Positions 20,101-47,986 of a DNA stretch of 64,000 nucleotides are shown piece after piece. The DNA comes from an uncultured Bacteriovoracaceae bacterium (GTDB taxonomy: Bacteria; Bdellovibrionota; UBA2428), in contig CAZSSP010000003.1 of the NCBI GenBank assembly GCA_964609695.1, forward strand, positions 112,224 through 176,223. Direction: 5' to 3'. A program made the translations under genes and the position numbers. A model generated the notes under the pieces. The model searched no databases. It was not told the DNA's origin and worked only from the letters and a program-made list of their open reading frames with translations. How positions within the stretch are numbered: the stretch's first letter is position 1; every line of letters starts with the position of its first letter.

Positions 20101-20381
20101 AACAAGTTCAAAAAATTGGGCAAGCACCCATGGGACAAGATTTACTTCATTTCTTGCAGTCTTCAAAAGTACAAATGGTGGTGAACACTACTGAAACAGC
20201 AGGTTCCTTTAAAGATGGTGAAAGTATTCGGCAGATTGCTTTAAGGTTGAGAATTCCTCTTATGAGTACAATTTCTGCTGCTGAAATGGCACTTATGGCT
20301 ATTGAGAGACTTAAAAAGGGCCATATTCCTACAGTTTGCTTGCAAGACTTCATTGCAGGCGCTCAATTGACGCAGGTTTAA
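17166..20381 (+). CDS. carB: Carbamoyl-phosphate synthase large subunit
   Basis: 1071 aa. Duplicated ATP-grasp halves ([23 protein letters not shown] and [22 protein letters not shown]). MGS-like C-terminus. Confidence 0.95.
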
Positions 20382-23664: not shown

Positions 23665-25836
23665 TTAATTGGCCAATGTGGGACAAGCATTTGGATCAAC
23701 TTTAAAGTTGCCACAAACTTCTCGGGTTTTTTTGCTGTTAGGAAAACATACGTGGATATGATTATGGTGTCCATCTTCATAGCGACAGCTTCTTAAGTTA
23801 GGATCATTGAATAGAATCGTTTCACCGCCAAAATCCTTAGCCATATTGATAAATTTTTGAGTGATGCTCGGACTGTAAGCATTGTCACGGAAAGTAAGAG
23901 GTTCATCTTTAAATTCATCTTTTCTAAAGGGTCTTATGTCTACACAATTTCCAATGGTGTGCGAACTATGATCATTAAAATACATCGCATCGACTTTTGA
24001 AATATCTCCCCAAGAAAGTCGGTAAGCAGAATCTTTATAAGCTATTCCCGCTGGAGCTTGTTTTCGCCATTCTTGCATGAGTGCAGTGAAGGCACAGGCT
24101 GTGATAGGTGAGGCGTAAGCATCATTTCCATTAAGTCCGGCGTTATAGTGAAAACTTCCGCAGGGTCCAACGCTAGGGGCTTTAGGGTTTAAAGGAATTT
24201 GAACCAATCCTGCTTCTCTTACGAGTACAGATCTCCCTTTTCTAGTTGTTGTATAAAGTGCAGGTGAGGTTTTGAAGTACGGAGTTACATAATGTTTATC
24301 GGCTATCATTTTTTTAATTTCCCAAGTAAAAGAAGGTTCACTAAGGGTTTTTGTATCGGTGAGTTTGGCTAAGGTTAAATTAGGATCAGCTTTATAGCCA
24401 TGAGAATAAAACCAACTCATAACAGTCGGGTCTCTGCTGCCAGGTTTACCTATGAGTCTTAGAATTTCATTGACCCGTGATTTGGGGTCGCGAGCTTCTT
24501 CTTGAACCATTACGTCAACTAAGCGGTCTTCATAATCTTGGCTTCCAGGGGTGAGTCCTTCGAATCTATAAGCATATTTTTGAATCAGTAAAGCTCGTTC
24601 TTCACTGTCGAGGCGTTTGGGATCGTATCGAGTCCAGGCTTGTTCGTTGAGTTCGTCGACAAGATTTTTCATCTCCTCAAAATGAGCGTAACAATCATTT
24701 TTATCATCTTGGCTTTTAAATTTTTCTTGGTCACAGAATTTTTTTAAACTTTGACTTAAGTGATAATCGGTTTTGTCTTGGAGGTTGACACCTTTTTCTC
24801 TCAAAAAGATATTGTTGTTTCTTCGAAGCCGGGCCACAGCATTTACGTTATGCCAGATTGCAGTTTCCATATGGGGCTGTCCTATGGCACCTACAACTCG
24901 ATTGGCATATTCATTGGTGACGGCACCGTGTAGAAAATTTCTAGAAATTTCATTTGTGTAAGCTTTACCATTGAAACTATTTGAACCCACAACAAAATTA
25001 GATGTGTTGTAAGTGACTCCCGGCGCGTTGCTTTCATGGTTTTCAAGAAAAATTAATTTTTTCACATAATCCATGGCGTTTACAGTTTCTTTAATATGAA
25101 CGTTGCCTTTAGAATTTTCATCGAGCATTTCCACATTTTGAATGAAGTGATCTATGTTGGCTGGAGTGTCTTCACGGTATTCTCGTGATTTGTGCATTTT
25201 ATCTGAAACATCTTTCCAGAAATAAGAATTGAGATCTTGGAGCGGTTCCTCAAGAGTGTTTTGGCATCTTGTTCGATTCCAGTCCTTTTTGAGGTGGTAT
25301 TCGCACCAGTTTTTAATTTGTTCTTTTAGTAAATCTAATAAATTGGATTTTTCTTTGTGTGTTAAATAAAGATTATTTTTTCTTTGGAGGCGAGCAATGC
25401 TGTTTCCAAATTGCCAAACCTTAAGAGCAAAGTCAGGTTTTCCAAGAGACATAGTCACTTGAGCCAAATAAGAGTTTACAATTTGTGAGTGATATTGATT
25501 TCTTTCTTCTTTGTCTTTGTAGGGGACAAGTTTTCCCTCATCATTTAAATATCCATCGGGCCCTATAACGTAATCTGGAAACTGAACCGGAATACCTTTT
25601 TCGAGTATCTCATCAGATTTATTACTTCCACTAACTGAGGAAGATTGAGACATGTGCCGTTGGGCTTCGTCTAAAGTTATGGAGTTTATTTTTTTGGTAT
25701 AGAGTAGAGATTCTTTGAGGTCTGGTTCCCTCATTAGAGGAATGGCGTCAGCAGCTTTTAAGGCTGTTGAACTCATGAAAAAGAGTATAGCTGCGCTCAT
25801 AAACAGCATAGAAAATGAGCGGCACAGGCTTCTCAT
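23665..25836 (-). CDS. Large secreted protein with C-terminal LAS-family (M15/VanY-like) zinc peptidase signature
   Basis: N-terminal signal peptide. C-terminal SSHTIGNCVD (SxHxxGxAxD-like) and HNHIHV (HxH) motifs characteristic of D-Ala-D-Ala carboxypeptidase/LAS peptidases. Confidence 0.5.
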   Translation of the reverse strand: MRSLCRSFSMLFMSAAILFFMSSTALKAADAIPLMREPDLKESLLYTKKINSITLDEAQRHMSQSSSVSGSNKSDEILEKGIPVQFPDYVIGPDGYLNDEGKLVPYKDKEERNQYHSQIVNSYLAQVTMSLGKPDFALKVWQFGNSIARLQRKNNLYLTHKEKSNLLDLLKEQIKNWCEYHLKKDWNRTRCQNTLEEPLQDLNSYFWKDVSDKMHKSREYREDTPANIDHFIQNVEMLDENSKGNVHIKETVNAMDYVKKLIFLENHESNAPGVTYNTSNFVVGSNSFNGKAYTNEISRNFLHGAVTNEYANRVVGAIGQPHMETAIWHNVNAVARLRRNNNIFLREKGVNLQDKTDYHLSQSLKKFCDQEKFKSQDDKNDCYAHFEEMKNLVDELNEQAWTRYDPKRLDSEERALLIQKYAYRFEGLTPGSQDYEDRLVDVMVQEEARDPKSRVNEILRLIGKPGSRDPTVMSWFYSHGYKADPNLTLAKLTDTKTLSEPSFTWEIKKMIADKHYVTPYFKTSPALYTTTRKGRSVLVREAGLVQIPLNPKAPSVGPCGSFHYNAGLNGNDAYASPITACAFTALMQEWRKQAPAGIAYKDSAYRLSWGDISKVDAMYFNDHSSHTIGNCVDIRPFRKDEFKDEPLTFRDNAYSPSITQKFINMAKDFGGETILFNDPNLRSCRYEDGHHNHIHVCFPNSKKTREVCGNFKVDPNACPTLAN

Positions 25837-27379: not shown

Positions 27380-28969
27380 ATGAGTATGAGGAAAATTCTT
27401 CCATTAATTATTTTCTTAAGCGCTTTTACGACTCAATCAAAGGAACCTTGGCCTTTTGACCAAAGAAATATCCTTCTTGTTCGCGTTAGTGGAGATGACT
27501 ATCCAGATGATGCGAGTTTGGCTCAGATTATGGATGTCTTTGTTGAGCGGGGTCGTATTCGATGGGTCACTCAAAAGGGTGATCCTGCACAAATAGTTCC
27601 TTTGCAAGTTCCGGTGGATTTTCCATGGCATTCTGCCCCTAGTGTGCGAGCTATGGGTTTAAAGTATAAGGCTGATGGAATTCTATATTTTGTTCAAGAA
27701 GGTATTGGGACTGAGCTTCGTTGGTATTCAACCTTAGACGGTCTCCCGATGGTTATTGAAAGTGTCAAAATTCCGGCGGCAGGTTCAGATGCTAAATGGC
27801 AAGAACAAAGAAGGGCCCGGCTCAAGGAATGGGCTCATCAAATTTGGGATCAAATTCCAGGAAATGGTTATGTGGTTCAACGACGTGGGAACGAAGCCTT
27901 GGTTGAGGGTCTTGATCCTGCTAGAATAAAAGTGGGTCAGCGTATCGATTTTATCAGAATAGATAAGGTGAATAGGCATCCCATTTTAAAGACACTTTCT
28001 CAGATCGAAAGTTCAGCGACCGGATATGGTGAAGTGACTTCGATACAAAAAAATCAATCACAAGTAAAAATTCAATTTGAATCTGAAATAGATCCTATAC
28101 AAGAAGGTGATAGATATTCCTATCAAGTTGTTGCTAAGGCGACCCCTTCAGCCCCTATCTCTGAATCTGTGGAAAATGAAGTTTCACAAAACACTCAGAG
28201 TGCCGAGCCTCAAGAGAATTCTCCTCAAACACAAGAAACTCCTTCGGGACTTTTATTTTTCAATAATACTAAAAAAATATTTGATCTTTATGCTGGGTTC
28301 AGTTTTGGGCAAATCACTCATGATGAAACAATCACTTCAACTTCGCGTTCAATGAAGAGTTCGAGTTTTTCTCCTGGATTTGATTTAGGTTCAACATTTT
28401 ATATAACTCGATCTTGGATTTCGGGCCTTGATTATTCTCAAACGGTGGCAAAATTTACTGATGTTCATCCTGGTTACGGAAGAACAAAAGTTAATTCTGG
28501 ATTGAGCACTTACAAAATATTTGGTGGTTATCGTTTTCTCATTGAAGAAGGCGTGACTTCATCGGCTGAACTCAGGGTTACTGCGGGCTATCGTAGTTGG
28601 GCTTTGGCCATGGAAGATATTGGCGGAAGTATTGCTCCTTCAGCAAAATCTTATGAAGGTCTAGAGCTGGGAGTGCTTGTTGGCTTTCCTATTTATAAGG
28701 GAGTAGGAGCTTCTTTTAGTGGTGGAAAAATGTTGGGAGCCAGTTTGAGTGAGAAACCACGAACGAGTGGAGATACTCCTGATGCGAGTTTCTGGCATTT
28801 TGGTGGTGGGCTTTCTTATGACATCAAGGGTAAGGGTGAGGCCCGTATTGGTTATAGAATTGAAACGGGTGAAACAAATTTCGATGGACAGGGTCAGCGC
28901 GGAACTAAAGCGAGCACAACTCTAGCTAAAAGAAGTTATTTTACTTGTAGCTACATAAACGCATTTTAA
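27380..28969 (+). CDS. Putative outer-membrane protein
   Basis: Signal peptide (ILPLIIFLSAFTTQS). Gly/Ser/Tyr-rich C-terminal half with alternating pattern, ending in an aromatic residue (…YINAF). Confidence 0.4.
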   Translation: MSMRKILPLIIFLSAFTTQSKEPWPFDQRNILLVRVSGDDYPDDASLAQIMDVFVERGRIRWVTQKGDPAQIVPLQVPVDFPWHSAPSVRAMGLKYKADGILYFVQEGIGTELRWYSTLDGLPMVIESVKIPAAGSDAKWQEQRRARLKEWAHQIWDQIPGNGYVVQRRGNEALVEGLDPARIKVGQRIDFIRIDKVNRHPILKTLSQIESSATGYGEVTSIQKNQSQVKIQFESEIDPIQEGDRYSYQVVAKATPSAPISESVENEVSQNTQSAEPQENSPQTQETPSGLLFFNNTKKIFDLYAGFSFGQITHDETITSTSRSMKSSSFSPGFDLGSTFYITRSWISGLDYSQTVAKFTDVHPGYGRTKVNSGLSTYKIFGGYRFLIEEGVTSSAELRVTAGYRSWALAMEDIGGSIAPSAKSYEGLELGVLVGFPIYKGVGASFSGGKMLGASLSEKPRTSGDTPDASFWHFGGGLSYDIKGKGEARIGYRIETGETNFDGQGQRGTKASTTLAKRSYFTCSYINAF

Positions 28970-29033: not shown

Positions 29034-30521
29034 TTACTCTTGAGCAGCTGGGGGCTTGGGCAGTGATCCTGGAGTATTAACCAACATGGCTTTGGGTACA
29101 CTTTTATTTAAAAGTCCTATTACAGCGAGCCTATCTTTTACGGCTTTACTGACATTACTTTGAGAATATTCATGTTGATAATATGATAATAGCATTCTGC
29201 TTTCTTCAGAATCTGGGTGAGCGTTAATGAAATCAGGAGTTCCCATCTTTTTCAAATACGCTACAAGCTCAGAGGAGTTTTTAGGTTTGTTTTGGCGAAG
29301 CACATAAATCTGTTTGATGAAATCTAAGCTGTAATCACGAGACATGGGGTCTTTGTTTTCACCAACATCAGCAATCAATCGGGCCAATTCTTCGTTAGTA
29401 GTGTTGGGGAGTAATTGATCTAGTTTTAATTGATTAGGATCTGATGAATTATGCTTATAATTTGCATTCGCTACAATGGCTAACTCTCTAATTTCTATTC
29501 GGCTATTTTCTGACTGTTTAGCATAGGCCTCCAATACATCTCCTTCTTTGTCTCCGCTTCTTTTTTGGTAAAACTCGTTAATACTCGTATAAAGATTGGG
29601 AAAATCTTTTTTAACTTTCTCTAGTCCTTTGGCTTCATCATGAAAGAAATTGGGATTTTTCAGGTTTTCTGTAGCTTGTTTGAATAAGTCGAGTTTAGCT
29701 TTATTTTCTTTGGCCCCAATGTAATCGGCAAGACGTCCAACTTTACTGATTTGAGAACCTAACTCAACTTTTTCCTTTTCGCTTAAAAGGACTCCTGGTT
29801 TTTCTCTATCTTTTATATAAGAGGCAAAGGCTTTGGGGTTTTTCTTTTGATCTTTTAATGCAGCAAAGCAACGACTACCTAGTTTTTGGTATAAAGATTG
29901 ATAGACACTATTGTTGCTCAAATTTTCGAAATCACCCCAATCAAGATTGTCTTCGGCTTTTGATAGAATCCAGGGATTGTTTTCAGCGGGTATCATGCCA
30001 ATTAATTTCTTAAAAGAAACTTCAGTAGGAGCCTTATCAGTAAGCATGACAGAGTTAATTCCATCGTTGGATTTCTCGATAAGGAGTTGAATGCGTCCGA
30101 GAGCTTTAATCTCATCTATACTCAGTTCGCTATTGTTGTGCCTGATTGTTTCAAAGGCCTGAGTGATAGCGTTTTTATAAGCTTTGGCTTTCTCTGGATA
30201 GTTTTCTGGATCGGTTTTTTTTAAGGCTTGAAGTGCTTTTGCTTCTTCGTTCATGAGTCGATTGAGGTACCAGTATTTTGTGGAAGATTCTTCTTTGGGA
30301 TTTTTGATATCTTGGGGGCACTCAAAAATTGAGCTGAGTTTTATTTTAAAGCGTTCAGCTTCACTTTGAGTTTTTAAGGAACTGAAAATTTCCTTTTCAG
30401 CTGAAGTAGATAATACTTCAGTTTTTACTTTGCTGTGATTGTTAGACCCAGCAAAAATTTGAGAGGCTGATAAGATTGAGCAAGTTAAAGAGACTCTTTT
30501 GAATTTTTGAATTCTCAACAT
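29034..30521 (-). CDS. Hypothetical secreted Lys-rich protein
   Basis: 495 aa with signal peptide (VSLTCSILSASQIFAGS). No motif recognised. Confidence 0.35.
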   Translation of the reverse strand: MLRIQKFKRVSLTCSILSASQIFAGSNNHSKVKTEVLSTSAEKEIFSSLKTQSEAERFKIKLSSIFECPQDIKNPKEESSTKYWYLNRLMNEEAKALQALKKTDPENYPEKAKAYKNAITQAFETIRHNNSELSIDEIKALGRIQLLIEKSNDGINSVMLTDKAPTEVSFKKLIGMIPAENNPWILSKAEDNLDWGDFENLSNNSVYQSLYQKLGSRCFAALKDQKKNPKAFASYIKDREKPGVLLSEKEKVELGSQISKVGRLADYIGAKENKAKLDLFKQATENLKNPNFFHDEAKGLEKVKKDFPNLYTSINEFYQKRSGDKEGDVLEAYAKQSENSRIEIRELAIVANANYKHNSSDPNQLKLDQLLPNTTNEELARLIADVGENKDPMSRDYSLDFIKQIYVLRQNKPKNSSELVAYLKKMGTPDFINAHPDSEESRMLLSYYQHEYSQSNVSKAVKDRLAVIGLLNKSVPKAMLVNTPGSLPKPPAAQE

Positions 30522-30629: not shown

Positions 30630-30947
30630 TTAGTCATCTTCTTTATCGCAACAAAACATATTATCGCCATATCCGTCGTGAGGATCCAATGGGTGGCAAG
30701 TTGAAGCGTTAGATTTGATCATCTGGGCTTTAGACATCACCTTGCAATCGGATTCTTGATCTTTCCACTTTTTAACCTGTTCCTTAGAGGGTTTTGCGGC
30801 CTCTTCATATTGCATGGTTTCATTTATTTTTTCTCTATCCCACTCTTGCTCGTGCCCAACATGTTTAACCTTTGTCTGGTTTTTTTTCGAAGAACAAGCT
30901 GTTATGCTGATTAGGGATACAATGAAAAGGGTGAGGACTTTTCTCAT
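30630..30947 (-). CDS. Small lipoprotein
   Basis: MRKVLTLFIVSLISITAC lipobox. Cys-rich C-terminus (CHP...CCDKEDD). Confidence 0.35.
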   Translation of the reverse strand: MRKVLTLFIVSLISITACSSKKNQTKVKHVGHEQEWDREKINETMQYEEAAKPSKEQVKKWKDQESDCKVMSKAQMIKSNASTCHPLDPHDGYGDNMFCCDKEDD

Positions 30948-30968
30948 AACTTCTAATTTTACAGACTC

Positions 30969-33386
30969 ATGAAGAATGTCCAACATATATTTTGGTCGAA
31001 CGGAAAAAACACTTTAACGCTTGACACCCTGCTCTGGAAGTTTCCGCAAAAGCTCTTAGCTTCACTGAATCTAAAAGAACTCCAAGTCTCTATATATAAT
31101 GCTCTAGTTCTGGATTGGGGCGATGCTCCCGTTGCGGATTTAGAAGAAATTAAAAACTGGATTCGATGCGGATCAAATTTTCAGTTTGTAGATAAATATC
31201 CTACATTTGCTTTAGAGTTTAGATCTAAAAGTTCCTTAGCTCAGGAGCTTCCTACGCTTTTATTAAGTAATTTTCAGCACGGAGCTCATTCAAGCCCTCA
31301 TTCTATTTATCAAAGTAAAATTCTCGAATTTCATTTTACAGGGCCTGAAGGAGAATCCCTATGGGAGAAAATTCTTGAAGCATTAAAAAAGCGCCCCAAT
31401 CTCAATACGCTCTGGGATCCAGTTGTAGAAGAAATGCGCGTAGTGAAAGATTCTAAATATGATTTCTGGACTTTTTCTCGAAATGATTTTTCTCAGTGGA
31501 AGGATATTCAAGCAATAATCGAATCTGAGTATGAAAATCAAGAAACTCATCCCTTAAAAAATCATCATTTGCTTATCGAAAAACAAAATGCACAAGAAGA
31601 AGCTCGACCTAGATATGTTCAAAATCAACTCGCTAAGGATCTTTGGAGTAATTTGTATGGTAAAGAATTTAAAGCACAGGCTGATTTTTTATTTTTTAAA
31701 CCTAAAAAGTGGAAGTTGAGGCAGTTCTCAGAATTTTCACCTAAAAGAGTACTAGCTAAATCCTTAGCGTTGTCTGGAAAACCTTTAGGAAATTTTGTTG
31801 AAATTGAAATCAATTCTGTTTTCCCTCGTGTTGAGAGCCTCAGTTCTTTGCCTGTTTCAAGTCAACGCTTTTATAATCAAAAGAATGGTGAACACTTATT
31901 TTTTGTGGGCCCTTGGGATTCTAATAATAAGGTTGTAGAGCAATCTGTTGAAAAGTGGCTTCAAGCTAAACCCGATCTTCTTATTAGAGGAATTCTTTGG
32001 GATTCATCTGAAAATTGGGTGTATTCGTTGTTAGAAACAGTTTTCAAGCTTCCTGGATGGCGTTTCGAGAAATCTGCATTTATGAATTTCTTAAGTGCCG
32101 TTAGTGAAAAGTCCTATTCATCAAATTATTTAATTTTCTGGGGAGAAATTAAAGAAATCACTCAATTTCAAGATGGAACATTTCCCGCTGGTTTAAAAGC
32201 TGGAATTTTAGGGTCTCGTGATCGCGATGGAGTTTATCAAGTCGATGCTTTTGAAGAGTCTGCTTCGTTTTTTTCAAAATTAAAATCAGATCTTAAAACT
32301 GGAAGTGATCCAAATTCTTTAGCTAGTAAATTAAAAACAGTTATTCGAGAAAATCCTCAAATTAAAGCCGCCTCATATGGCTACGATAGGGCGTCAGCGT
32401 TTCCAGATCAATATAGCTTAAAGGCGCATGTGGTCGCACGTGGGACCAATCAAGAGTGGATTGAGTCTCTGTGGTTAAATAGAACCGGATCTAAAATTTG
32501 GTCTACTACTATGGGATCCTTTTTTAATATCGCTAGTAATTCAAGAAAAGTGGCTACGGGTGAAAATTTAAATGTCGTAGCTGGGCAGCGTCTGCGTGCT
32601 TCTTGGTCCCATAACCCCGCTAAGAGTGCGGCTATTTTAATCGATGATGCCTTGAGGTCACTATTATCTCAGGGGGCTTCTCTAAAACGTATCAGCGTTA
32701 ATTTATGGATTGGATATGGCCGAAGATTATCGGGCCCCACTCAAGCTTCATTAAGTTTATTTTTTGAATCGTTTAAATCAAATTTATTAAAATTAGGGAT
32801 GAGCTTAGATTCTTTAAAAATGTCGCCTATGGCTCATTCGGAAGGCTTAGACGCATTTTTAATGCTGCAATCTCAAGAAGGATTATTGGAGCCTCAAGAT
32901 TCATTTTCTGGGTTTAGAATGGAAGAGGAAAGCATTTATTCTGTGGGGCCTAGACCCTTTCAAATGGAGTCGGGAAGTACGGTGCTTCGTTTTGTGCGAG
33001 TTTATTCTAATTTTGTTTCTTCCATTGAAGTTGAAAAGCAAATACAACTTTATCATCGCTTATCAGAACTTCAGAGAAAGGGAATCATATCTTCATTATC
33101 TAGCGTAACAGAAAGGGGTATAGCTGGATCTTTGTTAAATATGTCACTCTGGGGATCTCGTGGCGCGCAATTGCGACCAGGTTTGTCTTCAATAGAATTG
33201 TTTAGCGCAAGTCCTGGTCGATTACTTGTAGGTGTTCTGCCTCAAGATGCAAAAACTTTTGAATCTGAATTAAAAGGTGAGCAAGTATTAATGGTTGGAA
33301 CTGTTAAAGGGGATCGACTTTGGGGTTTAAAGTTAAGTGAAATGGTGAAGGTCATGACAGATTATGAAAAAGATCATATTGCTTAA
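30969..33386 (+). CDS. Divergent PurL-like (FGAM synthase / PurM-fold) protein
   Basis: C-terminal SVTERGIAGSLLNMSLWGSRGAQLRPG...ELFSASPGRLLVGV resembles the PurM C-terminal-domain consensus (HDVAEGGLG..LAE...LFSESQSR.V..V). WSHNPAKSAA is a weak echo of the E(S/T)HNHPSA motif. Confidence 0.45.
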   Translation: MKNVQHIFWSNGKNTLTLDTLLWKFPQKLLASLNLKELQVSIYNALVLDWGDAPVADLEEIKNWIRCGSNFQFVDKYPTFALEFRSKSSLAQELPTLLLSNFQHGAHSSPHSIYQSKILEFHFTGPEGESLWEKILEALKKRPNLNTLWDPVVEEMRVVKDSKYDFWTFSRNDFSQWKDIQAIIESEYENQETHPLKNHHLLIEKQNAQEEARPRYVQNQLAKDLWSNLYGKEFKAQADFLFFKPKKWKLRQFSEFSPKRVLAKSLALSGKPLGNFVEIEINSVFPRVESLSSLPVSSQRFYNQKNGEHLFFVGPWDSNNKVVEQSVEKWLQAKPDLLIRGILWDSSENWVYSLLETVFKLPGWRFEKSAFMNFLSAVSEKSYSSNYLIFWGEIKEITQFQDGTFPAGLKAGILGSRDRDGVYQVDAFEESASFFSKLKSDLKTGSDPNSLASKLKTVIRENPQIKAASYGYDRASAFPDQYSLKAHVVARGTNQEWIESLWLNRTGSKIWSTTMGSFFNIASNSRKVATGENLNVVAGQRLRASWSHNPAKSAAILIDDALRSLLSQGASLKRISVNLWIGYGRRLSGPTQASLSLFFESFKSNLLKLGMSLDSLKMSPMAHSEGLDAFLMLQSQEGLLEPQDSFSGFRMEEESIYSVGPRPFQMESGSTVLRFVRVYSNFVSSIEVEKQIQLYHRLSELQRKGIISSLSSVTERGIAGSLLNMSLWGSRGAQLRPGLSSIELFSASPGRLLVGVLPQDAKTFESELKGEQVLMVGTVKGDRLWGLKLSEMVKVMTDYEKDHIA

Positions 33387-34017
33387 AGGGCCTGGGTTAT
33401 TAGATTATTCTGAAATCGCATTTCTATTTGAGTCTCCTGACGTTAGTTTCGAAACCATAGAAATTAATGCATTTAGTTCAGAGCACCCTCGTTTTTCAGA
33501 TTTAAAATTTGATGGATTGATTTTTGGTTCTCCATATTTTTTTAGTCCCGAAGAAGCTCTTTGGGTTCGTTTGTTAACGAAAAAAATTGCACCACTTTTA
33601 GACAATTGTTGGGAGTCTAACGCTAAGGTTTTAGCGATGGGACGTGGTGCTTTAGTGTTTTGGGAATGGATGCTGGCTGATCGTTGGAAAAATTGGAAGG
33701 TTTTTGAATCCGCTGGTGTCGATGATTCTCTTTTAGAGTGCGAATTTTTTATTAGGGGTGAATGGAAGGCTTTGCGTTGTGGTCGTTTCAGTACTGACTT
33801 TATTTTACCAGAAACTAATGATTTCACGGATTGGGAGTCATTTTTAAGAAATTCAGGAAACACATTAGGTTGGGTGACTCGTAATTGCTATATCACTTTA
33901 GTGGATTTGCTTGCTTTTATGAATTCGGCTCAATTAGAATCTTATGGTTATTCGACTGATATTGAGCCCGGGGACTTTGCTGGGACCATAATTGAGGATA
34001 TTTTTGAATTAAAATGA
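33364..34017 (+). CDS. PurQ-like class I glutamine amidotransferase homologue, probably catalytically inactive
   Basis: KKIILLKGPG...FDGLIFGSPYFFSPEEAL...KVLAMGRGALVFWEWM parallels the PurQ/PurL glutaminase layout, but the nucleophile Cys position (GxCNG) reads AMGRG. Overlaps the upstream gene by 23 nt. Confidence 0.4.
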   Translation: MKKIILLKGPGLLDYSEIAFLFESPDVSFETIEINAFSSEHPRFSDLKFDGLIFGSPYFFSPEEALWVRLLTKKIAPLLDNCWESNAKVLAMGRGALVFWEWMLADRWKNWKVFESAGVDDSLLECEFFIRGEWKALRCGRFSTDFILPETNDFTDWESFLRNSGNTLGWVTRNCYITLVDLLAFMNSAQLESYGYSTDIEPGDFAGTIIEDIFELK

Positions 34018-35402
34018 GAAGCAGAGAAGAAGTTTTTGAAGATTGGAAAAAAAAATCCCTTCAGGATTTTTGGTTAATTTCTCAAGAGTTCTTTTCTTCT
34101 GATTCCGATTTTGTAGAGTTATTAGATAGAGTTTCCTACCAAGTAAAAAAGGGTAAATTAAGAAGCAGTGTAGAGTGTGACCGCTATTTGTTTTCACTTT
34201 TCCTTAAAACATTAGGTCAAAAAAGAAGAGCTGTTACTGAAAAAATTTATTTATTAGCATTGTTTAAGCTCAATTGGCCTCTTGAAAAGTTGTCTTCATT
34301 AACACATGAATATACTTCGAAAATAAAGTTTGTAGTCACTCAATCTTTAAAAGATAGGGTTTCTGTAGAGTTGAGCTCTAAAAAACTAACTCAGGATTGC
34401 TGCCGGGCCGATCTTTTTTTGGTGGATTATTTATTTGAGCGATCTTGGAAGCTTCCTTTTAAGGAAAATTTTAATCTTTTAACACTGAAAAATCATTTAA
34501 AATCTTGTGAACGTTGTCAGGCTGTGGTGGGTGCTGCCGAGGGAATTAAATCGCAAGTTGTTTATCAAGATATTAAAACATTTGAATATCAGTATCCCTT
34601 TACAAAAAAGATAAGCAAAAACAAAGTTCTCAAAAGTTTTGAGTTTTATCAGAACTTTTCATTGCATTGGAAGGGCTTAATTCAGATTCTACTTTCTATA
34701 GTATTAGTTTTTTCTATTGCGACAATTCCATTTGTTGGTAAATTTCTCATAAAACAACAACAAGGGGCTCAGTCTGAGGGCGAAGCAAAGAAAGCTGCAG
34801 TTGAAAAGCTTGATGCGACTTGGGTTGATTTAGCTCTCGAGCGTGATTTAATCTCTCCTCCTTGGCTTGTGAGTGAGCAACATGATAGCCCTCAGATTTC
34901 ACCTCTAAGTAAATTTTTAAATAATTATAAAGCAGAAGAAATAGCGCTTTCTCAGAAAAAAGAGACTGTTGATGTAGAGGCCCCAAAAGTGCAGGCTCCT
35001 CAGGTGGCTAAGAATGATGGCCCTAAAAACGCAGTAGTAGAAGTTGTAAAAGCGGATATTAAAACACGCTCTGAAATTGAAGAAGAGAATGCAGCAGAAT
35101 CTGATAATCAGTGGGTATTTTATAGGTGGGGTGCTTACGCTGAGGATCTAGACGTGATAGTTCCGAAAATTTTGAGCGTTCTTGAAATAAATCAAGCGGA
35201 AAAAGCCGGAGAACTAGATTTGGGTGCTGAGTATCGTGGTGGCCGCTATTTTCACTTTTCCATTAAAAAAGAGTTAATGAGAAAAGTTGTTGATGAATTA
35301 AAGACTTTAAAGCTTGAAGGATTTACAAAAGTTGAAGCAAAGTCAGACCGTAAAAATAAAGAAGGTCATTCAAGAATAGTCTTTCTACTCAAGCAAAAAT
35401 AA
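34014..35402 (+). CDS. Single-pass membrane protein with ZAS-type (zf-HC2) anti-sigma zinc-finger motif
   Basis: DCCRADLFLVDYLFE...(31 aa)...NHLKSCERCQ gives C...H-x3-C-x2-C. Central TM (LIQILLSIVLVFSIATIPFVGKFLI). ATGA overlap with the upstream gene. Confidence 0.4.
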   Translation: MRSREEVFEDWKKKSLQDFWLISQEFFSSDSDFVELLDRVSYQVKKGKLRSSVECDRYLFSLFLKTLGQKRRAVTEKIYLLALFKLNWPLEKLSSLTHEYTSKIKFVVTQSLKDRVSVELSSKKLTQDCCRADLFLVDYLFERSWKLPFKENFNLLTLKNHLKSCERCQAVVGAAEGIKSQVVYQDIKTFEYQYPFTKKISKNKVLKSFEFYQNFSLHWKGLIQILLSIVLVFSIATIPFVGKFLIKQQQGAQSEGEAKKAAVEKLDATWVDLALERDLISPPWLVSEQHDSPQISPLSKFLNNYKAEEIALSQKKETVDVEAPKVQAPQVAKNDGPKNAVVEVVKADIKTRSEIEEENAAESDNQWVFYRWGAYAEDLDVIVPKILSVLEINQAEKAGELDLGAEYRGGRYFHFSIKKELMRKVVDELKTLKLEGFTKVEAKSDRKNKEGHSRIVFLLKQK

Positions 35403-37590: not shown

Positions 37591-38883
37591 ATGCAGTCTC
37601 TTTCTAGCCAACCCTATAAAGGGTCACGGGATTTTTATCCCGCTGATTTTAAACGACGACAATGGATTTATGAAACTTGTGCACGAGTCCTAAGGGGCTT
37701 TGGATATCAGGAATACGATGGTCCACTTTTAGAGTCTTTTGACTTATATGCAGCAAAGTCGGGGCAAGAGCTCGTCGATCAGCAACTTTATTCCTTTTTG
37801 GATCGTGGCGAAAGAAAAGTTGCGATCCGGCCTGAGATGACTCCCACTTTAGCTCGTATGGTGGCTGCTAAATTGGAAGAAATTCCTAAACCTGTAAGAT
37901 GGTTTAGTTTTCCTAATGTTTGGAGATACGAGCGACCTCAAAGGGGCAGGCTAAGAGAGCATTGGCAGCTCAATGTAGATGTTCTTGGGGGTGATGCCAC
38001 CTGGGCTGAGACTGAAATTCTTGAAATCGCTGGTTCCTTATTTAAAAGTTTTGGAGCTCAGAAATATGTTCGTTTTAGGATCAATCATCGCGCCCTGATG
38101 GACGCTTTTTATACTCAACAACTTTCACTAAGTTCTGAAATTATTCCTGCCCTTTCTAGAATTTTAGATGGAAGAGAAAAGATGAGTTCTGAAGTTTTTA
38201 TTCAAAACTTAGAGAAAATCCAGTTAACTGCCACTCAAATTGATAAAGTTCAGTCATTTATAAGCTCGGATTTGTCGCAAGCCACTCAATTGTGTCCTTG
38301 TCCGGCTGCGGAACATCTCAATATTCTTTTTGAAAGGTTGTCTAATACCTCAACTCCTGATGTTTATCATTTTGATCCGTCTATCGTTCGGGGGCTGGAT
38401 TATTATACTGGAGTGGTTTTTGAGGCCTTTGATGTTTCTCCGGAAAACAATCGCGCCCTTTTTGGAGGGGGCCGATACGACAACTTGATGGGGCTTTTTC
38501 ATAAAAATAAAAGCCTTTCTGGTGTGGGTTTAGGCATGGGCGATGTGGTTTTAAGTGATTTTCTGGATTTGCATAAGTTGTGGCCTGATTTGAATCAGAA
38601 AAATCAAATTTTTATTTCATGCCCCGATGATCAATTCTACAATGATGTTTCTAAACTTGCCGTATCTCTGAGAGACTCCGATTTGTCCGTTATGACTTCA
38701 TTGGGGTCTGGATCTTTTAAAAGTCAATTGAAGCAAGCCGATCGATTGGGCGTTCGCTGGATTATACTTTGGGGCGAAAATGAGAAAAAATCTAATCAAG
38801 TTTTAGTCAAAGAGCTTTCCACCGGATCTCAAGATGCTGTTGATATCGGCCAATTGCTCCAGTGGTTTAAATCTCGTTGTTAA
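37591..38883 (+). CDS. hisS: Histidine--tRNA ligase
   Basis: 430 aa. PYKGSRDFYP N-terminus, motif 2 region WRYERPQRGRLREHWQ, GGGRYDNL motif 3. Confidence 0.9.
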   Translation: MQSLSSQPYKGSRDFYPADFKRRQWIYETCARVLRGFGYQEYDGPLLESFDLYAAKSGQELVDQQLYSFLDRGERKVAIRPEMTPTLARMVAAKLEEIPKPVRWFSFPNVWRYERPQRGRLREHWQLNVDVLGGDATWAETEILEIAGSLFKSFGAQKYVRFRINHRALMDAFYTQQLSLSSEIIPALSRILDGREKMSSEVFIQNLEKIQLTATQIDKVQSFISSDLSQATQLCPCPAAEHLNILFERLSNTSTPDVYHFDPSIVRGLDYYTGVVFEAFDVSPENNRALFGGGRYDNLMGLFHKNKSLSGVGLGMGDVVLSDFLDLHKLWPDLNQKNQIFISCPDDQFYNDVSKLAVSLRDSDLSVMTSLGSGSFKSQLKQADRLGVRWIILWGENEKKSNQVLVKELSTGSQDAVDIGQLLQWFKSRC

Positions 38884-45154: not shown

Positions 45155-46528
45155 TCACTTTAGGGGAGCATCAAATAAAGTTTGGGGCTCAGAAATTTCA
45201 TGAGGCTTTATAGCAGGTGGGCGCTTTTGTGCGGCTCTTTTTTCTGCGCTCTCGAAGATTTGACTGATTTGGTTTTCAATAACAGCTCTTTTAATCCCGC
45301 TACTATCGCTACGCCACATTTCAAGTAACGACCTCAATGTTTGCTTATCTTCATTGGATAAAATGGCATTTTTTTCTTTGATGACTTTTTCAATATCGAC
45401 AGGCTTAAAGCTTGTTTGAGTAATTGTTAACATTGGGTCGGGAAATGGGGGATTGAGTTTGGCGTAAGTCCAACTGCCACCGACCATTAGAGCTGCGGCT
45501 AGGGCCGTTACTATGGGGCGCCACACTCTGTGGTTTTGGGCGATTTGAGCGTGCGCTAATATTCTAGGCGCAATGACTTGTTTTCGATATCCAGCTTCAA
45601 CTTCAAAAAGATTTTTTTCATGGGCTTGGGCATCTAATAAAAGGCGTTCGAAGGAATCATAGTCAGCCTGATTCCATACGTGTTTTAAATAAAATTTATA
45701 GTTAGATTTAAAGAGCAGCATCAAAATTCGATGAGTGTAGGACTTGGGGGGATTTTCAGAGAGAGTGTCTTTAGCGGCTTCCCATTCTATGGGGTATTGA
45801 GGGAAATAGTTCTTCAAACCCCTCACTACAGAGTAGAAATGAAGTTCTCCTTGAGTGTAAGCATCGGCCACTCTGGCGGCGTAGGTGCGAGTGTTTTTAG
45901 AAAGGGGAAGTCTAAAAAATTCGCCTTTGCGGGCGACACTGAGAGTGTAAAAATCTGCAATCGATCTAGAAAAACTTCGAATATCGCGAAGTATTTGACC
46001 AAGGCTTTGTGTGCCTTCTCGAGGCCATTTCACTATGAGTTGTCGTTTGGAGTAGCTTAAACGAGTTTCAACCTGGCTGATGTCTTCAGTTTTGAAAACA
46101 ACGCTGAGACCAATTTGTGGATAGCGACTTAAATGTCGAGAGAGACTCCACTCATAATTTGGGTTGAGTGCATCGGCCATAGCCAAAAGGCTCTCGACTC
46201 CAGTCGGATGATTGTTTTTGAGTTCACTAAGAACATCTGCTTCGTTAAGCGACGTTCTTTCGCGGAAAAAGATATTCCATTTATGAAAGGAACTTTCGTA
46301 ATTTTCTTGATTATAGTTTTTTAAATGTGGGGTGAGCGTGGAAAGTTCGGACTCACAAGTAGGATTAGCTGAAGCTTGGGCTCCAAACTGAGGCGTAAGA
46401 ATGAGTAGGCTTAAACCTAGGGCTATAATCTTCACGGTGCCGCGTAGCATTATACGGAATTTAAATTTAGGCAAGTCTTCTTTTAAAAAAAGCTCTTGAG
46501 AATGAAATATTTTCAATAAAATCATCAA
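45155..46528 (-). CDS. Hypothetical exported protein with C-terminal TM anchor
   Basis: Signal-like IIALGLSLLILTPQFGAQA. C-proximal TM WRPIVTALAAALMVGGSW. Confidence 0.35.
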   Translation of the reverse strand: MMILLKIFHSQELFLKEDLPKFKFRIMLRGTVKIIALGLSLLILTPQFGAQASANPTCESELSTLTPHLKNYNQENYESSFHKWNIFFRERTSLNEADVLSELKNNHPTGVESLLAMADALNPNYEWSLSRHLSRYPQIGLSVVFKTEDISQVETRLSYSKRQLIVKWPREGTQSLGQILRDIRSFSRSIADFYTLSVARKGEFFRLPLSKNTRTYAARVADAYTQGELHFYSVVRGLKNYFPQYPIEWEAAKDTLSENPPKSYTHRILMLLFKSNYKFYLKHVWNQADYDSFERLLLDAQAHEKNLFEVEAGYRKQVIAPRILAHAQIAQNHRVWRPIVTALAAALMVGGSWTYAKLNPPFPDPMLTITQTSFKPVDIEKVIKEKNAILSNEDKQTLRSLLEMWRSDSSGIKRAVIENQISQIFESAEKRAAQKRPPAIKPHEISEPQTLFDAPLK

Positions 46529-46554: not shown

Positions 46555-46821
46555 TTAGTCGATGGCCTTTTGAATTTCTTTAAGTGCATTGAGGTGGCGT
46601 TGGTCGATGGGTTCCAAAGGATGTTGGGCGTTTTCAATATCTTGCTGTTTTGAGTTGGCAATGTCGCGAGCGACTTGGTCGTGTGTTTCTTTTTGAGTGA
46701 AATGAAGTGCAATCGCTAGAGTGCTCACACAAAGTAACCAGCCCAATTTATGCATCACAAAATCCCCCCAAATTGGCCTATCATTAGGCCAATGATTTTT
46801 AATTTCCGGTATAAGCAACAT
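46555..46821 (-). CDS. Small hypothetical membrane protein
   Basis: 88-aa ORF with one hydrophobic segment (LGWLLCVSTLAIALH). Overlaps the upstream gene end. Confidence 0.25.
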   Translation of the reverse strand: MLLIPEIKNHWPNDRPIWGDFVMHKLGWLLCVSTLAIALHFTQKETHDQVARDIANSKQQDIENAQHPLEPIDQRHLNALKEIQKAID

Positions 46822-47986
46822 TCACAACAGCTCCGTTGCTAGGAACTGCAGATCCGTGGAAGACCAATCTGTTTTCGCTTGAAAGGTAAGTCCAGCCATT
46901 AGTGGCGTCTTGCGGATATTGTACGCTGTTAACTGTCACGACTAGATTGCTTAAATTTGGTGTTACAGAAAGTGTGAACTTAGGAAGATAAGTGATTCTT
47001 ACGCTTTGGCTAAGTCCAGGAATGTTTCCTGCTGTAAAAACGACTGTGCTACCTGATAAATTCCACTGTGTTCCTTTAGTTTTTTCGGCTCCGTTAACAT
47101 AAACATGCACAGTATCAGGATCAAAGTTAGCAATTTGAAGTTCGAATTTGTCTGTAGGTTTGCTCACGTCTTGCGCGAGATCATCAAGGAGTGCAGAAAA
47201 GTTCGAAGTTTTTACGCAGGCAGTGACTGATGTAGAGCTATTTTGTTGGTATTGGGCATCCAGTAATCTTGTAGTGTCCATGAAGCGTGTTCCAACTTTT
47301 TCGTCGATGTATGTTGGATCTGCTGTGCAACCACTGTTTCCAGTGATCACGATAGAACGAGAGCTGACGAAAGCAGAGCTTGGTTTGAAGGCTTTGAGGC
47401 TTGAAGCATAATTGCTCGCGCTTCGACTTCCGCCTAAGCGACTTTGAGAGAGATCATCGGTATCGGATACGAAAACGTAAACTAATTGCGAACCAGGTCT
47501 TACGAAACTAGATCCTCGCGCTTGCATTGTTTTTAATGTGGCTTCAAGGCCAAGGGTGGTGTTTTTAGCTAGCGGAGAACCTAAACTATAAAGTTGGTCG
47601 ATGAAACTATTTTGAAGAGACGCAGCTTGAGAGGATTCAATAGTGATTCCTCCAATAAAGCTTTGGCTAATAGTGCTGTATTGAGCGGCATCAACGTTTC
47701 CGTTGATAAATCCAATTCGGTATTTGATGTTTTCGCTCACAAGGCTTTGAGCAAAGTCTGAGAGACTGTCGATAAGAAGTTCTCTTTTGTTTTTCATAGA
47801 GTAACTTCCGTCTACAGTGAAGATGTAATCGGCTTGTAGAATTTGATTGGCTTGTTGGTAGAGATCTTCAGAGTCGATAGTGAAAGAGTCTACAGCTCCT
47901 GGAATAAAGGTTTGTGGTCCTTTACTGCACGAAGCAACTGCAAAAATCAGCGGCAATAGTAGGCATGCATAGCGTTTCATAAACAA
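46799..47986 (-). CDS. Lipoprotein with probable von Willebrand factor A (VWA)-like domain
   Basis: Lipobox LIFAVASC. DYIFTVDGSYSMKNKRELLIDSL resembles the VWA MIDAS motif DxSxS. Confidence 0.4.
   Translation of the reverse strand: MFMKRYACLLLPLIFAVASCSKGPQTFIPGAVDSFTIDSEDLYQQANQILQADYIFTVDGSYSMKNKRELLIDSLSDFAQSLVSENIKYRIGFINGNVDAAQYSTISQSFIGGITIESSQAASLQNSFIDQLYSLGSPLAKNTTLGLEATLKTMQARGSSFVRPGSQLVYVFVSDTDDLSQSRLGGSRSASNYASSLKAFKPSSAFVSSRSIVITGNSGCTADPTYIDEKVGTRFMDTTRLLDAQYQQNSSTSVTACVKTSNFSALLDDLAQDVSKPTDKFELQIANFDPDTVHVYVNGAEKTKGTQWNLSGSTVVFTAGNIPGLSQSVRITYLPKFTLSVTPNLSNLVVTVNSVQYPQDATNGWTYLSSENRLVFHGSAVPSNGAVVNVAYTGN

What the first reader, a model, noticed from the sequence alone, without database searches (positions are those of the whole stretch)
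30969..35402. Three-gene operon: PurL-like protein, PurQ-like pseudo-glutaminase and ZAS-motif membrane protein
All three ORFs are co-directional with overlapping stop/start codons (23-nt and ATGA overlaps), which implies one translationally coupled unit. The 805-aa product carries a PurM-fold C-terminal signature (…TERGIAGSLLNMSL…ELFSASPGRLLVGV) and only a weak echo (SHNPAKSAA) of the HNHP substrate motif of FGAM synthase. The 217-aa product parallels the PurQ / PurL glutaminase layout but lacks the nucleophilic Cys. The third product carries an anti-sigma ZAS zinc motif plus a TM helix. These are purine-enzyme folds that look catalytically degenerate, coupled to a transmembrane regulator-like protein. 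I know of no described system with this composition. It could be a repurposed pseudoenzyme sensor/signalling module rather than a metabolic PurL.
Basis: partly seen in the sequence, partly recalled or inferred. Interest (0 to 1): 0.8.

Follow-up and report, generated by a model that had tools for sequence, protein, structure and literature searches.

The report
Dead PurL-like operon with zinc-motif membrane protein
A tightly coupled gene block, found only in a group of predatory-type bacteria (Bdellovibrionota), encodes a copy of the purine enzyme PurL that keeps the fold but has lost the recognisable catalytic residues, a small partner protein and a zinc-motif membrane protein, so an old metabolic enzyme was probably given a new, still unknown job.

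Summary
The three overlapping ORFs are real. The block, plus a divergent Cys-rich lipoprotein gene (g0), recurs in about 17 Bdellovibrionota/Bacteriovoracaceae lineages. All four genes are under strong purifying selection (dN/dS 0.03-0.08).

**g1 (805 aa)** is a genuine but very remote PurL homologue:
- hhalign against PurL gives probability 99.7%, E 1.6e-25.
- PurL's catalytic signatures cannot be recognised, and the auxiliary-site metal ligands are not conserved. It scores 30 bits against a 525-648 bit PurL cutoff.
It lies in the non-catalytic A2 domain.

**g2 (217 aa)** has no conserved Cys or His, and an invariant G-R-x-A sits where a nucleophile elbow would be. Its PurQ homology could not be shown: hhalign P 0.035-0.13, no better than unrelated proteins.

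**g3** has an invariant C-x31-H-x3-C-x2-C zinc motif, one TM helix, a conserved periplasmic domain and a weak ECF-sigma-like N-terminus.

No database family or paper describes this block. It is most likely a PurL-derived pseudoenzyme module working with a sigma/anti-sigma-like membrane protein. The function is unproven. Whether a canonical purL exists elsewhere in the genome could not be tested.

The parts
30630..30947 (-). g0: small Cys-rich lipoprotein, divergent from g1. The mechanical ORF runs to 30986, but the likely start is Met14 at 30947.
   Evidence: It has a signal peptide with the lipobox ...SITAC. The conserved motif is WD..I..R..E ... DC-x(n)-SGC-x-D-R-G-x-G-x3-CC, with four conserved Cys in 13 relatives. 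It lies upstream and divergent in every locus with enough flank. dN/dS is 0.026. Pfam gives no hit.
30969..33386 (+). g1: 805-aa PurL-like protein with no recognisable catalytic motifs (putative pseudo-FGAM synthetase).
30969..31535 (+). g1 N-terminal alpha/beta region (aa 1-189), possibly equivalent to the PurS-like N-domain plus linker of large PurL.
31536..32303 (+). g1 A1/B1-equivalent half (aa ~190-445). This is the catalytic half in PurL and is degenerate here.
   Evidence: No member of the 24-sequence family has SEHCxHK, ETHNHPS, GGxxRD or GAKP-type motifs in this region. PurL invariants retained: A1 0/22, B1 2/23. The hhalign alignment has essentially no confidence for aa 129-318.
32364..32414 (+). 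g1 family-specific motif K-x-P-x-Y-G-[FY]-D-R-A-x2-F-P-D-Q-Y (aa 466-482).
   Evidence: K466, G471 and P479 are invariant or nearly invariant, and Y470 and D480 are conserved in at least 20 of 24 sequences. No PurL counterpart was recognised. The model has low pLDDT at aa 467-470, so part of the motif may be flexible.
32415..33338 (+). g1 A2/B2-equivalent half (aa ~483-790), the conserved part of the family.
   Evidence: High-confidence hhalign to PurL A2/B2. AIRS_C matches aa 693-782. The PurL auxiliary-site ligands E718, N722, D884 and S886 are not conserved. Family-invariant or near-invariant residues include D/E559, R563, R650, E654, S680, N681, Q691, Y695, S746, R751, E765 and E771.
33364..34017 (+). 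g2: 217-aa soluble protein, translationally coupled to g1. PurQ-like only by position, size and motif layout.
   Evidence: The family is present directly after g1 in all loci. Conserved motifs are GPG, R-x-PW, G-R-x-A, GW, D181 and QL..GY, with no conserved Cys or His. Pfam and PDB give no hits. hhalign against the PurL glutaminase domain: P 0.035-0.13. dN/dS is 0.028.
33640..33651 (+). g2 G-R-G-A motif (aa 93-96) at the position where a class I amidotransferase would have G-x-C-x-G.
   Evidence: G93, R94 and A96 are invariant in the 10-sequence alignment. GR.A is conserved in at least 80% of the 16-sequence alignment. Equivalence to the nucleophile elbow is an inference from motif order only.
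34014..35402 (+). g3: 462-aa single-pass membrane protein.
   Evidence: The family is present after g2 in all loci with enough flank. dN/dS is 0.078. No Pfam or NCBIfam family passes threshold.
34026..34379 (+). g3 N-terminal region (aa 5-122) with weak resemblance to an ECF sigma factor (sigma2 remnant plus sigma4-like helix-turn-helix).
   Evidence: hhalign against E. coli RpoE: P 9.3e-4, collinear over RpoE 7-189, with a reversed control at P 0.45. PDB profile hit to FliA sigma region 4, E 0.12. No Pfam sigma-domain hit.
34398..34517 (+). g3 zinc-binding anti-sigma (ZAS)-type motif C129-x31-H161-x3-C165-x2-C168.
   Evidence: C129, D133, H161, C165, R167 and C168 are invariant. PDB profile hit to anti-sigma-W RsiW across the motif, E 0.039. 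NCBIfam RsrA E 0.1. zf-HC2 E 0.29 in 1 of 12 members.
34668..34742 (+). g3 transmembrane helix (aa ~219-243).
   Evidence: This is the only Kyte-Doolittle window above 1.6 in g3. g1 and g2 have none.
35115..35393 (+). g3 conserved C-terminal extracytoplasmic domain (aa 368-460): F-Y-R-W-G-A ... G-G-R-Y-F-H-F ... R-I-V-F.
   Evidence: It is the best-conserved part of g3, 39-53% identical in relatives that are otherwise about 25% identical. It follows a low-complexity A/E/K/V-rich linker. Pfam and PDB give no hit.

Best explanation
The block encodes a lineage-specific module built around a PurL paralogue that no longer makes FGAM.

**Shown**
- g1 keeps the tandem PurM-type fold of FGAM synthetase.
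- No histidine motif, nucleotide/Mg motif or full catalytic loop of PurL can be recognised in g1 or its relatives.
- g2 has no conserved Cys, and no conserved His.
- g3 is a single-pass membrane protein with an invariant Cys/His zinc motif on the cytoplasmic side and a conserved domain on the periplasmic side.
- The genes are translationally coupled, conserved as a block and under purifying selection.

**Inferred**
- g1 and g2 form a cytoplasmic, PurL/PurQ-like but non-catalytic pair. Their conserved surface lies in the A2/B2 half of g1 (D559, R563, R650, E654, S680, N681...) and around the invariant Arg of g2. It binds a partner or a small ligand rather than carrying out catalysis.
- This pair docks on the cytoplasmic sigma-like/zinc-motif part of g3. 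Together they form an envelope-spanning regulatory complex.
- The periplasmic end of that complex (the g3 C-terminal domain, perhaps with lipoprotein g0) receives or delivers a signal.
- R563 sits where PurL has a metal-ligand residue (N722, or D318 in the other half), which suggests a filled-in, dead nucleotide site.
For: - **PurL homology and fold:**
- **Loss of signatures:** (A1 0/22, B1 2/23, A2 0/9 PurL invariants retained; H216 to E/D; H296 to V/L/I; G447, G450 and S455 unaligned). One search shows no His motif in any of 24 members. One search shows E718, N722, D884 and S886 are not conserved. One search gives 30 bits against cutoffs of 525-648.
- **g2:** no conserved Cys or His, and invariant G-R-x-A.
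- **g3:** zinc motif, TM helix and sigma-like N-terminus.
- **Block conservation and tight junctions** in about 17 lineages.
- **Purifying selection** equal to that on aspS and hisS.
- **Precedent:** catalytically dead PurL homologues with non-metabolic roles exist in herpesviruses (PMC7605207). g1 superposes on them.
Against: - No experiment or interaction evidence exists. Docking of g1/g2 on g3 is inferred only from operon structure.
- The A1 alignment to PurL is low-confidence, and I had no model coordinates, so 'dead' rests on the absence of any recognisable motif, not on a structural superposition.
- The whole neighbourhood (aspS, hisS, an M14 peptidase) is syntenic in these genomes. Adjacency, especially of g0, is therefore weaker evidence than usual.
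- The many invariant polar residues in A2/B2 could equally be a new active site.
- The fold of g2 is unknown.
Confidence: 0.4

Rival explanations
1. g1/g2 is a neofunctionalised enzyme. It is still an ATP-using or amide-forming catalyst, but with a rebuilt active site in the A2/B2 half and a different substrate. g3 is its membrane anchor or regulator.
Against: The metal ligands of the PurL A2/B2 nucleotide site are not conserved (D884 is Pro in 20/24, and E718 and N722 are variable). An invariant Arg sits at the metal-ligand position. g2 has no conserved nucleophile. No profile similarity was found to any characterised PurM-superfamily enzyme other than the PurL C-terminus.
Confidence: 0.25
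2. g1/g2 and g3 are functionally unrelated neighbours kept together by the general synteny of this chromosome region. g3 is an ordinary ZAS anti-sigma factor for a sigma factor encoded elsewhere. g1/g2 is a structural or chaperone-like relic.
For: aspS, hisS, the M14 peptidase, a hydrolase and a response regulator are also syntenic across these genomes. No sigma gene is in the operon or among the neighbours that were scanned.
Against: g2 and g3 overlap or abut by a few nucleotides in essentially every lineage despite about 25% protein identity. This is typical of co-translated partners, not of mere synteny. g1, g2 and g3 also evolve at similar, elevated long-range rates (25-30% identity against about 60% for AspS).
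Confidence: 0.2
3. It is simply this lineage's very divergent, split but functional FGAM synthase (PurL plus PurQ).
For: The gene order mirrors the domain order of large PurL (synthetase, then glutaminase). No other purL was found in the 64-kb window. The organism does carry de novo pyrimidine genes (pyrB, carA, carB), so it is not a general nucleotide auxotroph.
Against: The residues invariant in all six reference PurLs are missing throughout the catalytic half. There is no Cys or His available for a triad in g2. The score is 30 bits against equivalog cutoffs of 525-648. The family exists only in one lineage, with 31 hits at E<=1e-10 among 1.84 billion clusters.
Confidence: 0.03

Closest known systems
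FGAM synthetase PurL (small PurL of the PurLQS complex; large single-chain PurL/PFAS)
   Different: The PurL catalytic and nucleotide-binding signatures are not recognisable. g1 fails the curated PurL models by about 500 bits. Its partner g2 has no conserved Cys or His. It sits in an operon with a membrane protein, not with purine genes.
Gammaherpesvirus tegument vFGARAT / viral pseudo-glutamine-amidotransferases (ORF75, BNRF1)
   Different: The viral proteins are single chains of about 1300 aa that include the glutaminase domain, and they are eukaryotic-virus proteins. g1/g2 is bacterial, split, and linked to a membrane zinc-motif protein. Nothing points to common descent beyond PurL itself.
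Zinc-binding anti-sigma (ZAS) factors such as RsrA, ChrR and RsiW
   Same: g3 has an invariant H-x3-C-x2-C plus an upstream Cys ligand. It also has a cytoplasmic N-terminus, a single TM helix and an extracytoplasmic C-terminal domain. There is a weak profile hit to RsiW over the motif (E 0.039).
   Different: No partner ECF sigma gene lies next to g3. The motif starts at residue 129 rather than near the N-terminus. The Cys-to-His spacing is 31, against about 25 in RsrA and ChrR (from memory). g3 does not reach the Pfam zf-HC2 or NCBIfam thresholds.
ECF52-type sigma factors with a fused zinc-finger, TM region and extracytoplasmic domain (e.g. SCO4117)
   Same: The order of parts is the same: sigma-like region, zinc motif, TM helix, low-complexity linker, C-terminal extracytoplasmic domain (PMC5826349). 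g3 aa 5-122 aligns collinearly with RpoE at P 9e-4.
   Different: The sigma-like part of g3 is only about 120 aa, with no Pfam sigma-domain hit. The C-terminal domain is not a recognised carbohydrate-binding module. ECF52 is reported as exclusive to Actinobacteria, whereas this is Bdellovibrionota. ECF52 proteins are not linked to PurL-like genes.

Membership tests
FGAM synthetase PurL (EC 6.3.5.3) | Tandem PurM-type (A1B1-A2B2) fold | tested here: met
FGAM synthetase PurL (EC 6.3.5.3) | Reaches the curated equivalog HMM thresholds (TIGR01736, NF002290) | tested here: not met
   28-31 bits against cutoffs of 525.75 and 648. Only the C-terminal ~145 residues match.
FGAM synthetase PurL (EC 6.3.5.3) | Catalytic-site histidines and the SEHCxHK / ETHNHP motifs (H216, H296 in E. 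coli/Salmonella numbering) | tested here: not met
   The aligned positions are E/D (21/24) and V/L/I/T. No His-containing motif occurs in this region in any of 24 members. Caveat: alignment confidence is low in A1.
FGAM synthetase PurL (EC 6.3.5.3) | Nucleotide/Mg motifs (GGxxRD...GAKP), the catalytic loop, and the B1 motifs (DxGAGG, SESQER) | tested here: not met
   A1 retains 0/22 and B1 2/23 PurL invariants. The catalytic-loop residues G447, G450 and S455 fall in a gap.
FGAM synthetase PurL (EC 6.3.5.3) | Auxiliary ADP-site ligands in A2/B2 (E718, N722, D884, S886; roles recalled from the Salmonella structure literature) | tested here: not met
   E718 and N722 are variable, D884 is Pro in 20/24 and S886 is Gly in 16/24. 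This is a high-confidence part of the alignment.
FGAM synthetase PurL (EC 6.3.5.3) | Sole purL of the genome, in a purine-pathway context | not testable with these tools
   No other purL/purQ is in the window (tblastn), and no purine genes are among the neighbours that were scanned.
PurQ / class I glutamine amidotransferase | Homologous alpha/beta amidotransferase fold | tested here: inconclusive
   Pfam and PDB profile searches found nothing. hhalign P is 0.016-0.035 against a two-sequence PurL glutaminase profile, with a reversed control at 0.27. Against 51 single targets the three amidotransferase domains rank 2nd, 6th and 10th, but are not above unrelated proteins. No structure model was made.
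PurQ / class I glutamine amidotransferase | Nucleophilic Cys in a G-x-C-x-G elbow | tested here: not met
   No Cys is conserved in 16 sequences. The invariant G-R-x-A sits at the position suggested by motif order.
PurQ / class I glutamine amidotransferase | His-Glu of the triad (HPE motif) | tested here: not met
   No conserved His. The C-terminal conserved residues are D181 and Q-L-x3-G-Y.
ZAS (zinc-binding) anti-sigma factors | H-x3-C-x2-C motif plus an upstream Cys/His ligand | tested here: met
   C129, H161, C165 and C168 are invariant in the 12- and 13-sequence family alignments.
ZAS (zinc-binding) anti-sigma factors | Significant match to anti-sigma domain models (zf-HC2 PF13490, RsrA TIGR03988) | tested here: not met
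   zf-HC2 E 0.29 in 1 of 12 members. RsrA E 0.1, 12.7 bits against a cutoff of 62.5. PDB RsiW E 0.039. These are suggestive only.
ZAS (zinc-binding) anti-sigma factors | Adjacent, co-transcribed ECF sigma factor gene | tested here: not met
   The operon is g1-g2-g3. No neighbour with a Pfam hit within ~10 kb is a sigma factor, though several neighbours have no Pfam hit. A weak sigma-like region lies in cis.
ZAS (zinc-binding) anti-sigma factors | Zinc binding and sigma-factor sequestration | not testable with these tools
   This needs metal analysis and binding assays.
ECF52-type sigma/zinc-finger/TM fusion proteins | Bona fide ECF sigma domain (sigma2 plus sigma4) at the N-terminus | tested here: inconclusive
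   No Pfam sigma-domain hit in 12 members. hhalign against RpoE: P 9.3e-4, probability 22%. FliA region 4: E 0.12.
ECF52-type sigma/zinc-finger/TM fusion proteins | Carbohydrate-binding C-terminal module; Actinobacteria only (PMC5826349) | tested here: not met
   The C-terminal domain has no Pfam hit. The loci with a named organism are Bdellovibrionota or Bacteriovoracaceae MAGs.

The most novel reading that the evidence does not exclude
A fossil of the purine enzyme complex PurL/PurQ has been recruited as the cytoplasmic ligand-sensing or regulatory subunit of a membrane-anchored sigma/anti-sigma-like protein. This occurred in predatory-type Bdellovibrionota. The dead amidotransferase pair would still bind a metabolite, for example glutamine/glutamate at the invariant Arg of g2, or a nucleotide or purine intermediate in g1. 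Binding would gate release or activity of the zinc-motif domain of g3. Nutrient status would thereby be coupled to an envelope signal received by the g3 periplasmic domain and lipoprotein g0. This would be a new type of bacterial signal-transduction module built from a pseudoenzyme.
Probability: 0.15. Interest if true: 0.85.

Novelty: new variant of a known kind. Interest (0 to 1): 0.62.

Why it matters
Bacterial pseudoenzymes are far less studied than eukaryotic and viral ones. I found no description of a PurL homologue that lacks its catalytic signatures, is conserved and is under strong selection in bacteria. The only comparable case found is the herpesvirus tegument vFGARAT family. Its fixed coupling to a ZAS-type, sigma-like membrane protein gives a concrete, testable hypothesis for how a metabolic enzyme scaffold can be re-used in regulation. 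It also assigns a first structural annotation to four 'hypothetical' gene families of a poorly characterised predatory lineage. If the module is instead catalytic, it would be a new chemistry in the PurM superfamily.

Tried and rejected
- **First AF2 run of g1**, with only 3 sequences, failed (pLDDT 31.8). The re-run with 24 family members worked but used the last structure job, so g2 and g3 could not be modelled.
- **afdb50 Foldseek** was unavailable.
- **An apparent g2-g3 fusion ORF in L008/L018** (777 aa) is an artefact of a long spurious upstream ORF in a high-GC genome. g2 lies in another frame.
- **The g1 N-terminus against the E. coli PurL N-domain:** no sequence signal (P 0.19).
- **g2 against PurQ:** a larger family alignment did not improve the signal. 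An empirical background of 48 window proteins showed the amidotransferase scores are not exceptional.
- **A PDB search to harvest diverse PurQ sequences** returned only Salmonella PurL variants.
- **Database scans:** PADLOC gave no defence-system match. Rfam found only two tRNAs and SRP RNA, and no riboswitch near the operon.
- **The promoter/terminator scan** gave no more sites than shuffled sequence.
- **Literature searches** for a bacterial PurL pseudoenzyme, or for this block in Bdellovibrionota comparative genomics, found nothing.
- **The 'divergent functional split purL' reading** was rejected on the residue evidence.

Full report
**Observation**

The window has three co-directional ORFs at exactly the stated coordinates:
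- g1, 30969-33386, 805 aa
- g2, 33364-34017, 217 aa
- g3, 34014-35402, 462 aa

The 23-nt g1/g2 overlap and the ATGA g2/g3 overlap are visible in the sequence. A fourth gene belongs to the picture. g0 is a small divergent ORF at 30630-30986 (-). Its likely start is Met14 (30947), which gives a lipoprotein signal peptide. That start leaves only 21 nt between the divergent starts.

**Distribution and selection**

Word-based searches found almost nothing:
- g1: a 94% and a 43% relative
- g2: one 98% relative
- g3: a 93% relative and two at about 26%

An exhaustive profile search of 1.84 billion cluster representatives found only 26 proteins at E<1e-30. Among the top hits, all but a few fragments are 790-845 aa. 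After a gap come only weak hits. All ten of those weak hits that I checked are genuine PurLs, matched through their C-termini.

Contig look-ups and genome and metagenome scans gave about 17 distinct loci. The ones with a named organism are Bdellovibrionota or Bacteriovoracaceae MAGs. Every locus with enough flank carries g0(-), g1, g2 and g3 in the same order. The g1-g2 distance is -23 to +3 nt, and the g2-g3 distance is -44 to +13 nt.

Against the 94%-identical relative, dN/dS values are as follows:

| Gene | dN/dS |
|---|---|
| g0 | 0.026 |
| g1 | 0.057 |
| g2 | 0.028 |
| g3 | 0.078 |
| aspS | 0.031 |
| hisS | 0.040 |

These are therefore functional genes. At long range they evolve faster than housekeeping genes, at 25-33% identity against about 60% for AspS.

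One caution applies. aspS, hisS and further neighbours are also syntenic in these genomes. The tight junctions are therefore stronger evidence of coupling than adjacency alone.

**g1 is a PurL homologue**

- Sequence: Pfam AIRS_C matches aa 693-782 just below threshold and matches 20 of 24 family members. NCBIfam PurL models match aa 647-790 at 28-31 bits, against cutoffs of 525-648.
- Profile against profile: the 24-member family aligns to PurL with probability 99.7% and E 1.6e-25 over g1 319-786. That span corresponds to PurL domains B1, A2 and B2.
- Structure: with the family alignment, AlphaFold gave a confident model (pLDDT 82.6, pTM 0.87).
  - Foldseek ranks large PurL/human PFAS first (E 6e-24, TMq 0.6). 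T. thermophilus small PurL follows (TMq 0.46), then single PurM-type modules.
- The tandem PurM-module fold is therefore established.
- The idea that the N-terminal ~190 residues correspond to the PurS-like N-domain and linker of large PurL (domain scheme in PMC7124931) is only suggested. The support is the higher Foldseek coverage. The sequence gives no signal (P 0.19).

**g1 has lost the PurL signatures**

I mapped residues invariant in six reference PurLs onto the family through the hhalign alignment. The number retained in at least 80% of members is:

| Domain | Retained |
|---|---|
| N/linker | 1/6 |
| A1 | 0/22 |
| B1 | 2/23 |
| A2 | 0/9 |
| B2 | 6/8 (five glycines and one Leu) |

- H216 aligns to E/D and H296 to V/L/I. 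Part of the catalytic-loop region is unaligned.
- No member shows any SEHCxHK, ETHNHP, GGxxRD or GAKP-like motif.
- In the high-confidence A2/B2 part, the auxiliary-site residues are not conserved: E718 and N722 are variable, D884 is Pro and S886 is Gly. An invariant Arg (R563), with D/E559 one helical turn before it, occupies the metal-ligand face of that helix.
Its His is not conserved.
- Caveat: the A1 alignment has essentially no confidence, and I could not superpose coordinates. 'Dead' therefore means 'no recognisable catalytic residue in any family member'.
- The family has its own invariant polar residues, nearly all in A2/B2, plus a K-x-P-x-Y-G-[FY]-D-R-A-x2-F-P-D-Q-Y motif at aa 466-482.

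**g2**

- The 16-sequence family conserves GPG, R-x-PW, G-R-x-A, GW, D181 and QL..GY. It has no conserved Cys or His, so it cannot be a triad amidotransferase.
- The order of its motifs parallels the PurQ motifs, recalled from memory as 'PGxN', 'GGFSYGD' and 'GxCNG'. It also sits where large PurL has its glutaminase domain.
- Homology is nevertheless not demonstrable.
  - Pfam and PDB profile searches found nothing.
  - hhalign gives P 0.016-0.035, with a reversed control at 0.27.
  - Against 51 single targets, the three amidotransferase domains rank 2nd, 6th and 10th with full-length collinear alignments, but they score no better than unrelated proteins.

**g3**

- Thirteen relatives share an invariant C129-x31-H161-x3-C165-x-R-C168.
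- There is one TM helix at aa ~219-243. A low-complexity linker follows, then a well-conserved C-terminal domain at aa 368-460.
- Profile searches give only weak, but correctly positioned, hits:
  - anti-sigma RsiW across the zinc motif (E 0.039)
  - FliA sigma region 4 over positions 60-126 (E 0.12)
  - RsrA (E 0.1)
- The N-terminal 122 residues align collinearly with E. coli RpoE 7-189 at P 9.3e-4, with a reversed control at 0.45.
- The layout is sigma-like region, zinc motif, TM helix, linker, extracytoplasmic domain. It resembles the actinobacterial ECF52 proteins (PMC5826349). g3 meets neither their sigma-domain criterion nor their carbohydrate-module criterion.
- No sigma factor gene was identified in the operon or among its neighbours.

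**g0**

g0 is a lipoprotein with four conserved Cys, in the pattern DC...SGC..D.R.G.G...CC. It has no family match.

**Context**

The window is ordinary chromosome. It carries lon, recO, lepA, pyrB, carA, carB, recG, aspS, hisS, ribF, dnaX, SRP RNA and tRNAs. No purine gene and no second purL/purQ is in the window. There is no defence-system match. No riboswitch was found, and the promoter/terminator scan gave no more sites than shuffled sequence.

**Interpretation**

The best-supported reading (confidence about 0.4) has three parts:
- g1, probably with g2, is a PurL-derived pseudoenzyme.
- It works with the zinc-motif membrane protein g3 as one lineage-specific module.
- The module most plausibly acts as an envelope-spanning regulatory complex.

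The rivals are:
- a neofunctionalised enzyme with a new site in A2/B2 (0.25)
- unrelated neighbours held together by synteny (0.2)
- a divergent but functional split purL (0.03)

The closest precedents are the herpesvirus vFGARAT pseudoenzymes (PMC7605207). g1 superposes on them, but nothing points to common descent beyond PurL itself.

I rate the finding a new variant of known kinds: a PurL-fold pseudoenzyme, and a ZAS-type membrane regulator. The gene combination itself is not described in any family library or paper that I could search.

Noticed in passing
window 30630-30986 (-): The mechanical ORF for g0 overlaps the g1 start codon by 18 nt in divergent orientation. With the likely start at Met14 (30947), the divergent starts are only 21 nt apart. 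The promoters of g0 and g1 must therefore lie inside each other's coding regions.
   Followed up: partly
window 16531-17169 (+): A 212-aa ORF with no Pfam hit is wedged between carA (15378-16544) and carB (17166-20381) and overlaps both ends. It is an unknown protein that appears translationally coupled inside the carbamoyl-phosphate synthetase operon, downstream of pyrB (14349-15239).
   Followed up: no
window 23665-25836 (-), 27380-28969 (+), 29034-30521 (-), 45155-46528 (-), 46799-47986 (-), 49095-52172 (+): Six large ORFs (395-1025 aa) have no Pfam family at E<=1e-5. The 495-aa one just upstream of g0 starts with a hydrophobic, signal-peptide-like N-terminus and has no detectable relative in the more distant loci.
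   Followed up: no
L011:6274-7035 and L022:6257-7018: In one lineage, g3 is only 253 aa. It has the sigma-like region, the zinc motif and the TM helix, but no periplasmic linker or C-terminal domain. This may be a natural truncation or an assembly problem.
   Followed up: no
L017:6602-7408: This g2 orthologue carries an extra ~45-residue insertion in the middle of the protein, in the variable region between the conserved W residues.
   Followed up: no
L005:11225-12535 versus window 37591-38883: hisS lies next to aspS in both loci but on the opposite strand in L005, a local inversion within otherwise conserved synteny.
   Followed up: no
window 33364-33386 and L001:2665-2687: The 23-nt g1/g2 overlap is also 23 nt long in a relative whose g1 is only 43% identical. 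Both reading frames are conserved there (g1 ...YEKDH, g2 MKKI...). The overlap segment itself therefore appears to be under dual-frame constraint.
   Followed up: partly
window 1-64000: GC skew is positive in almost every 2-kb bin across the whole window (cumulative skew rises steadily). This is consistent with a single replichore and no origin or terminus in the window.
   Followed up: no
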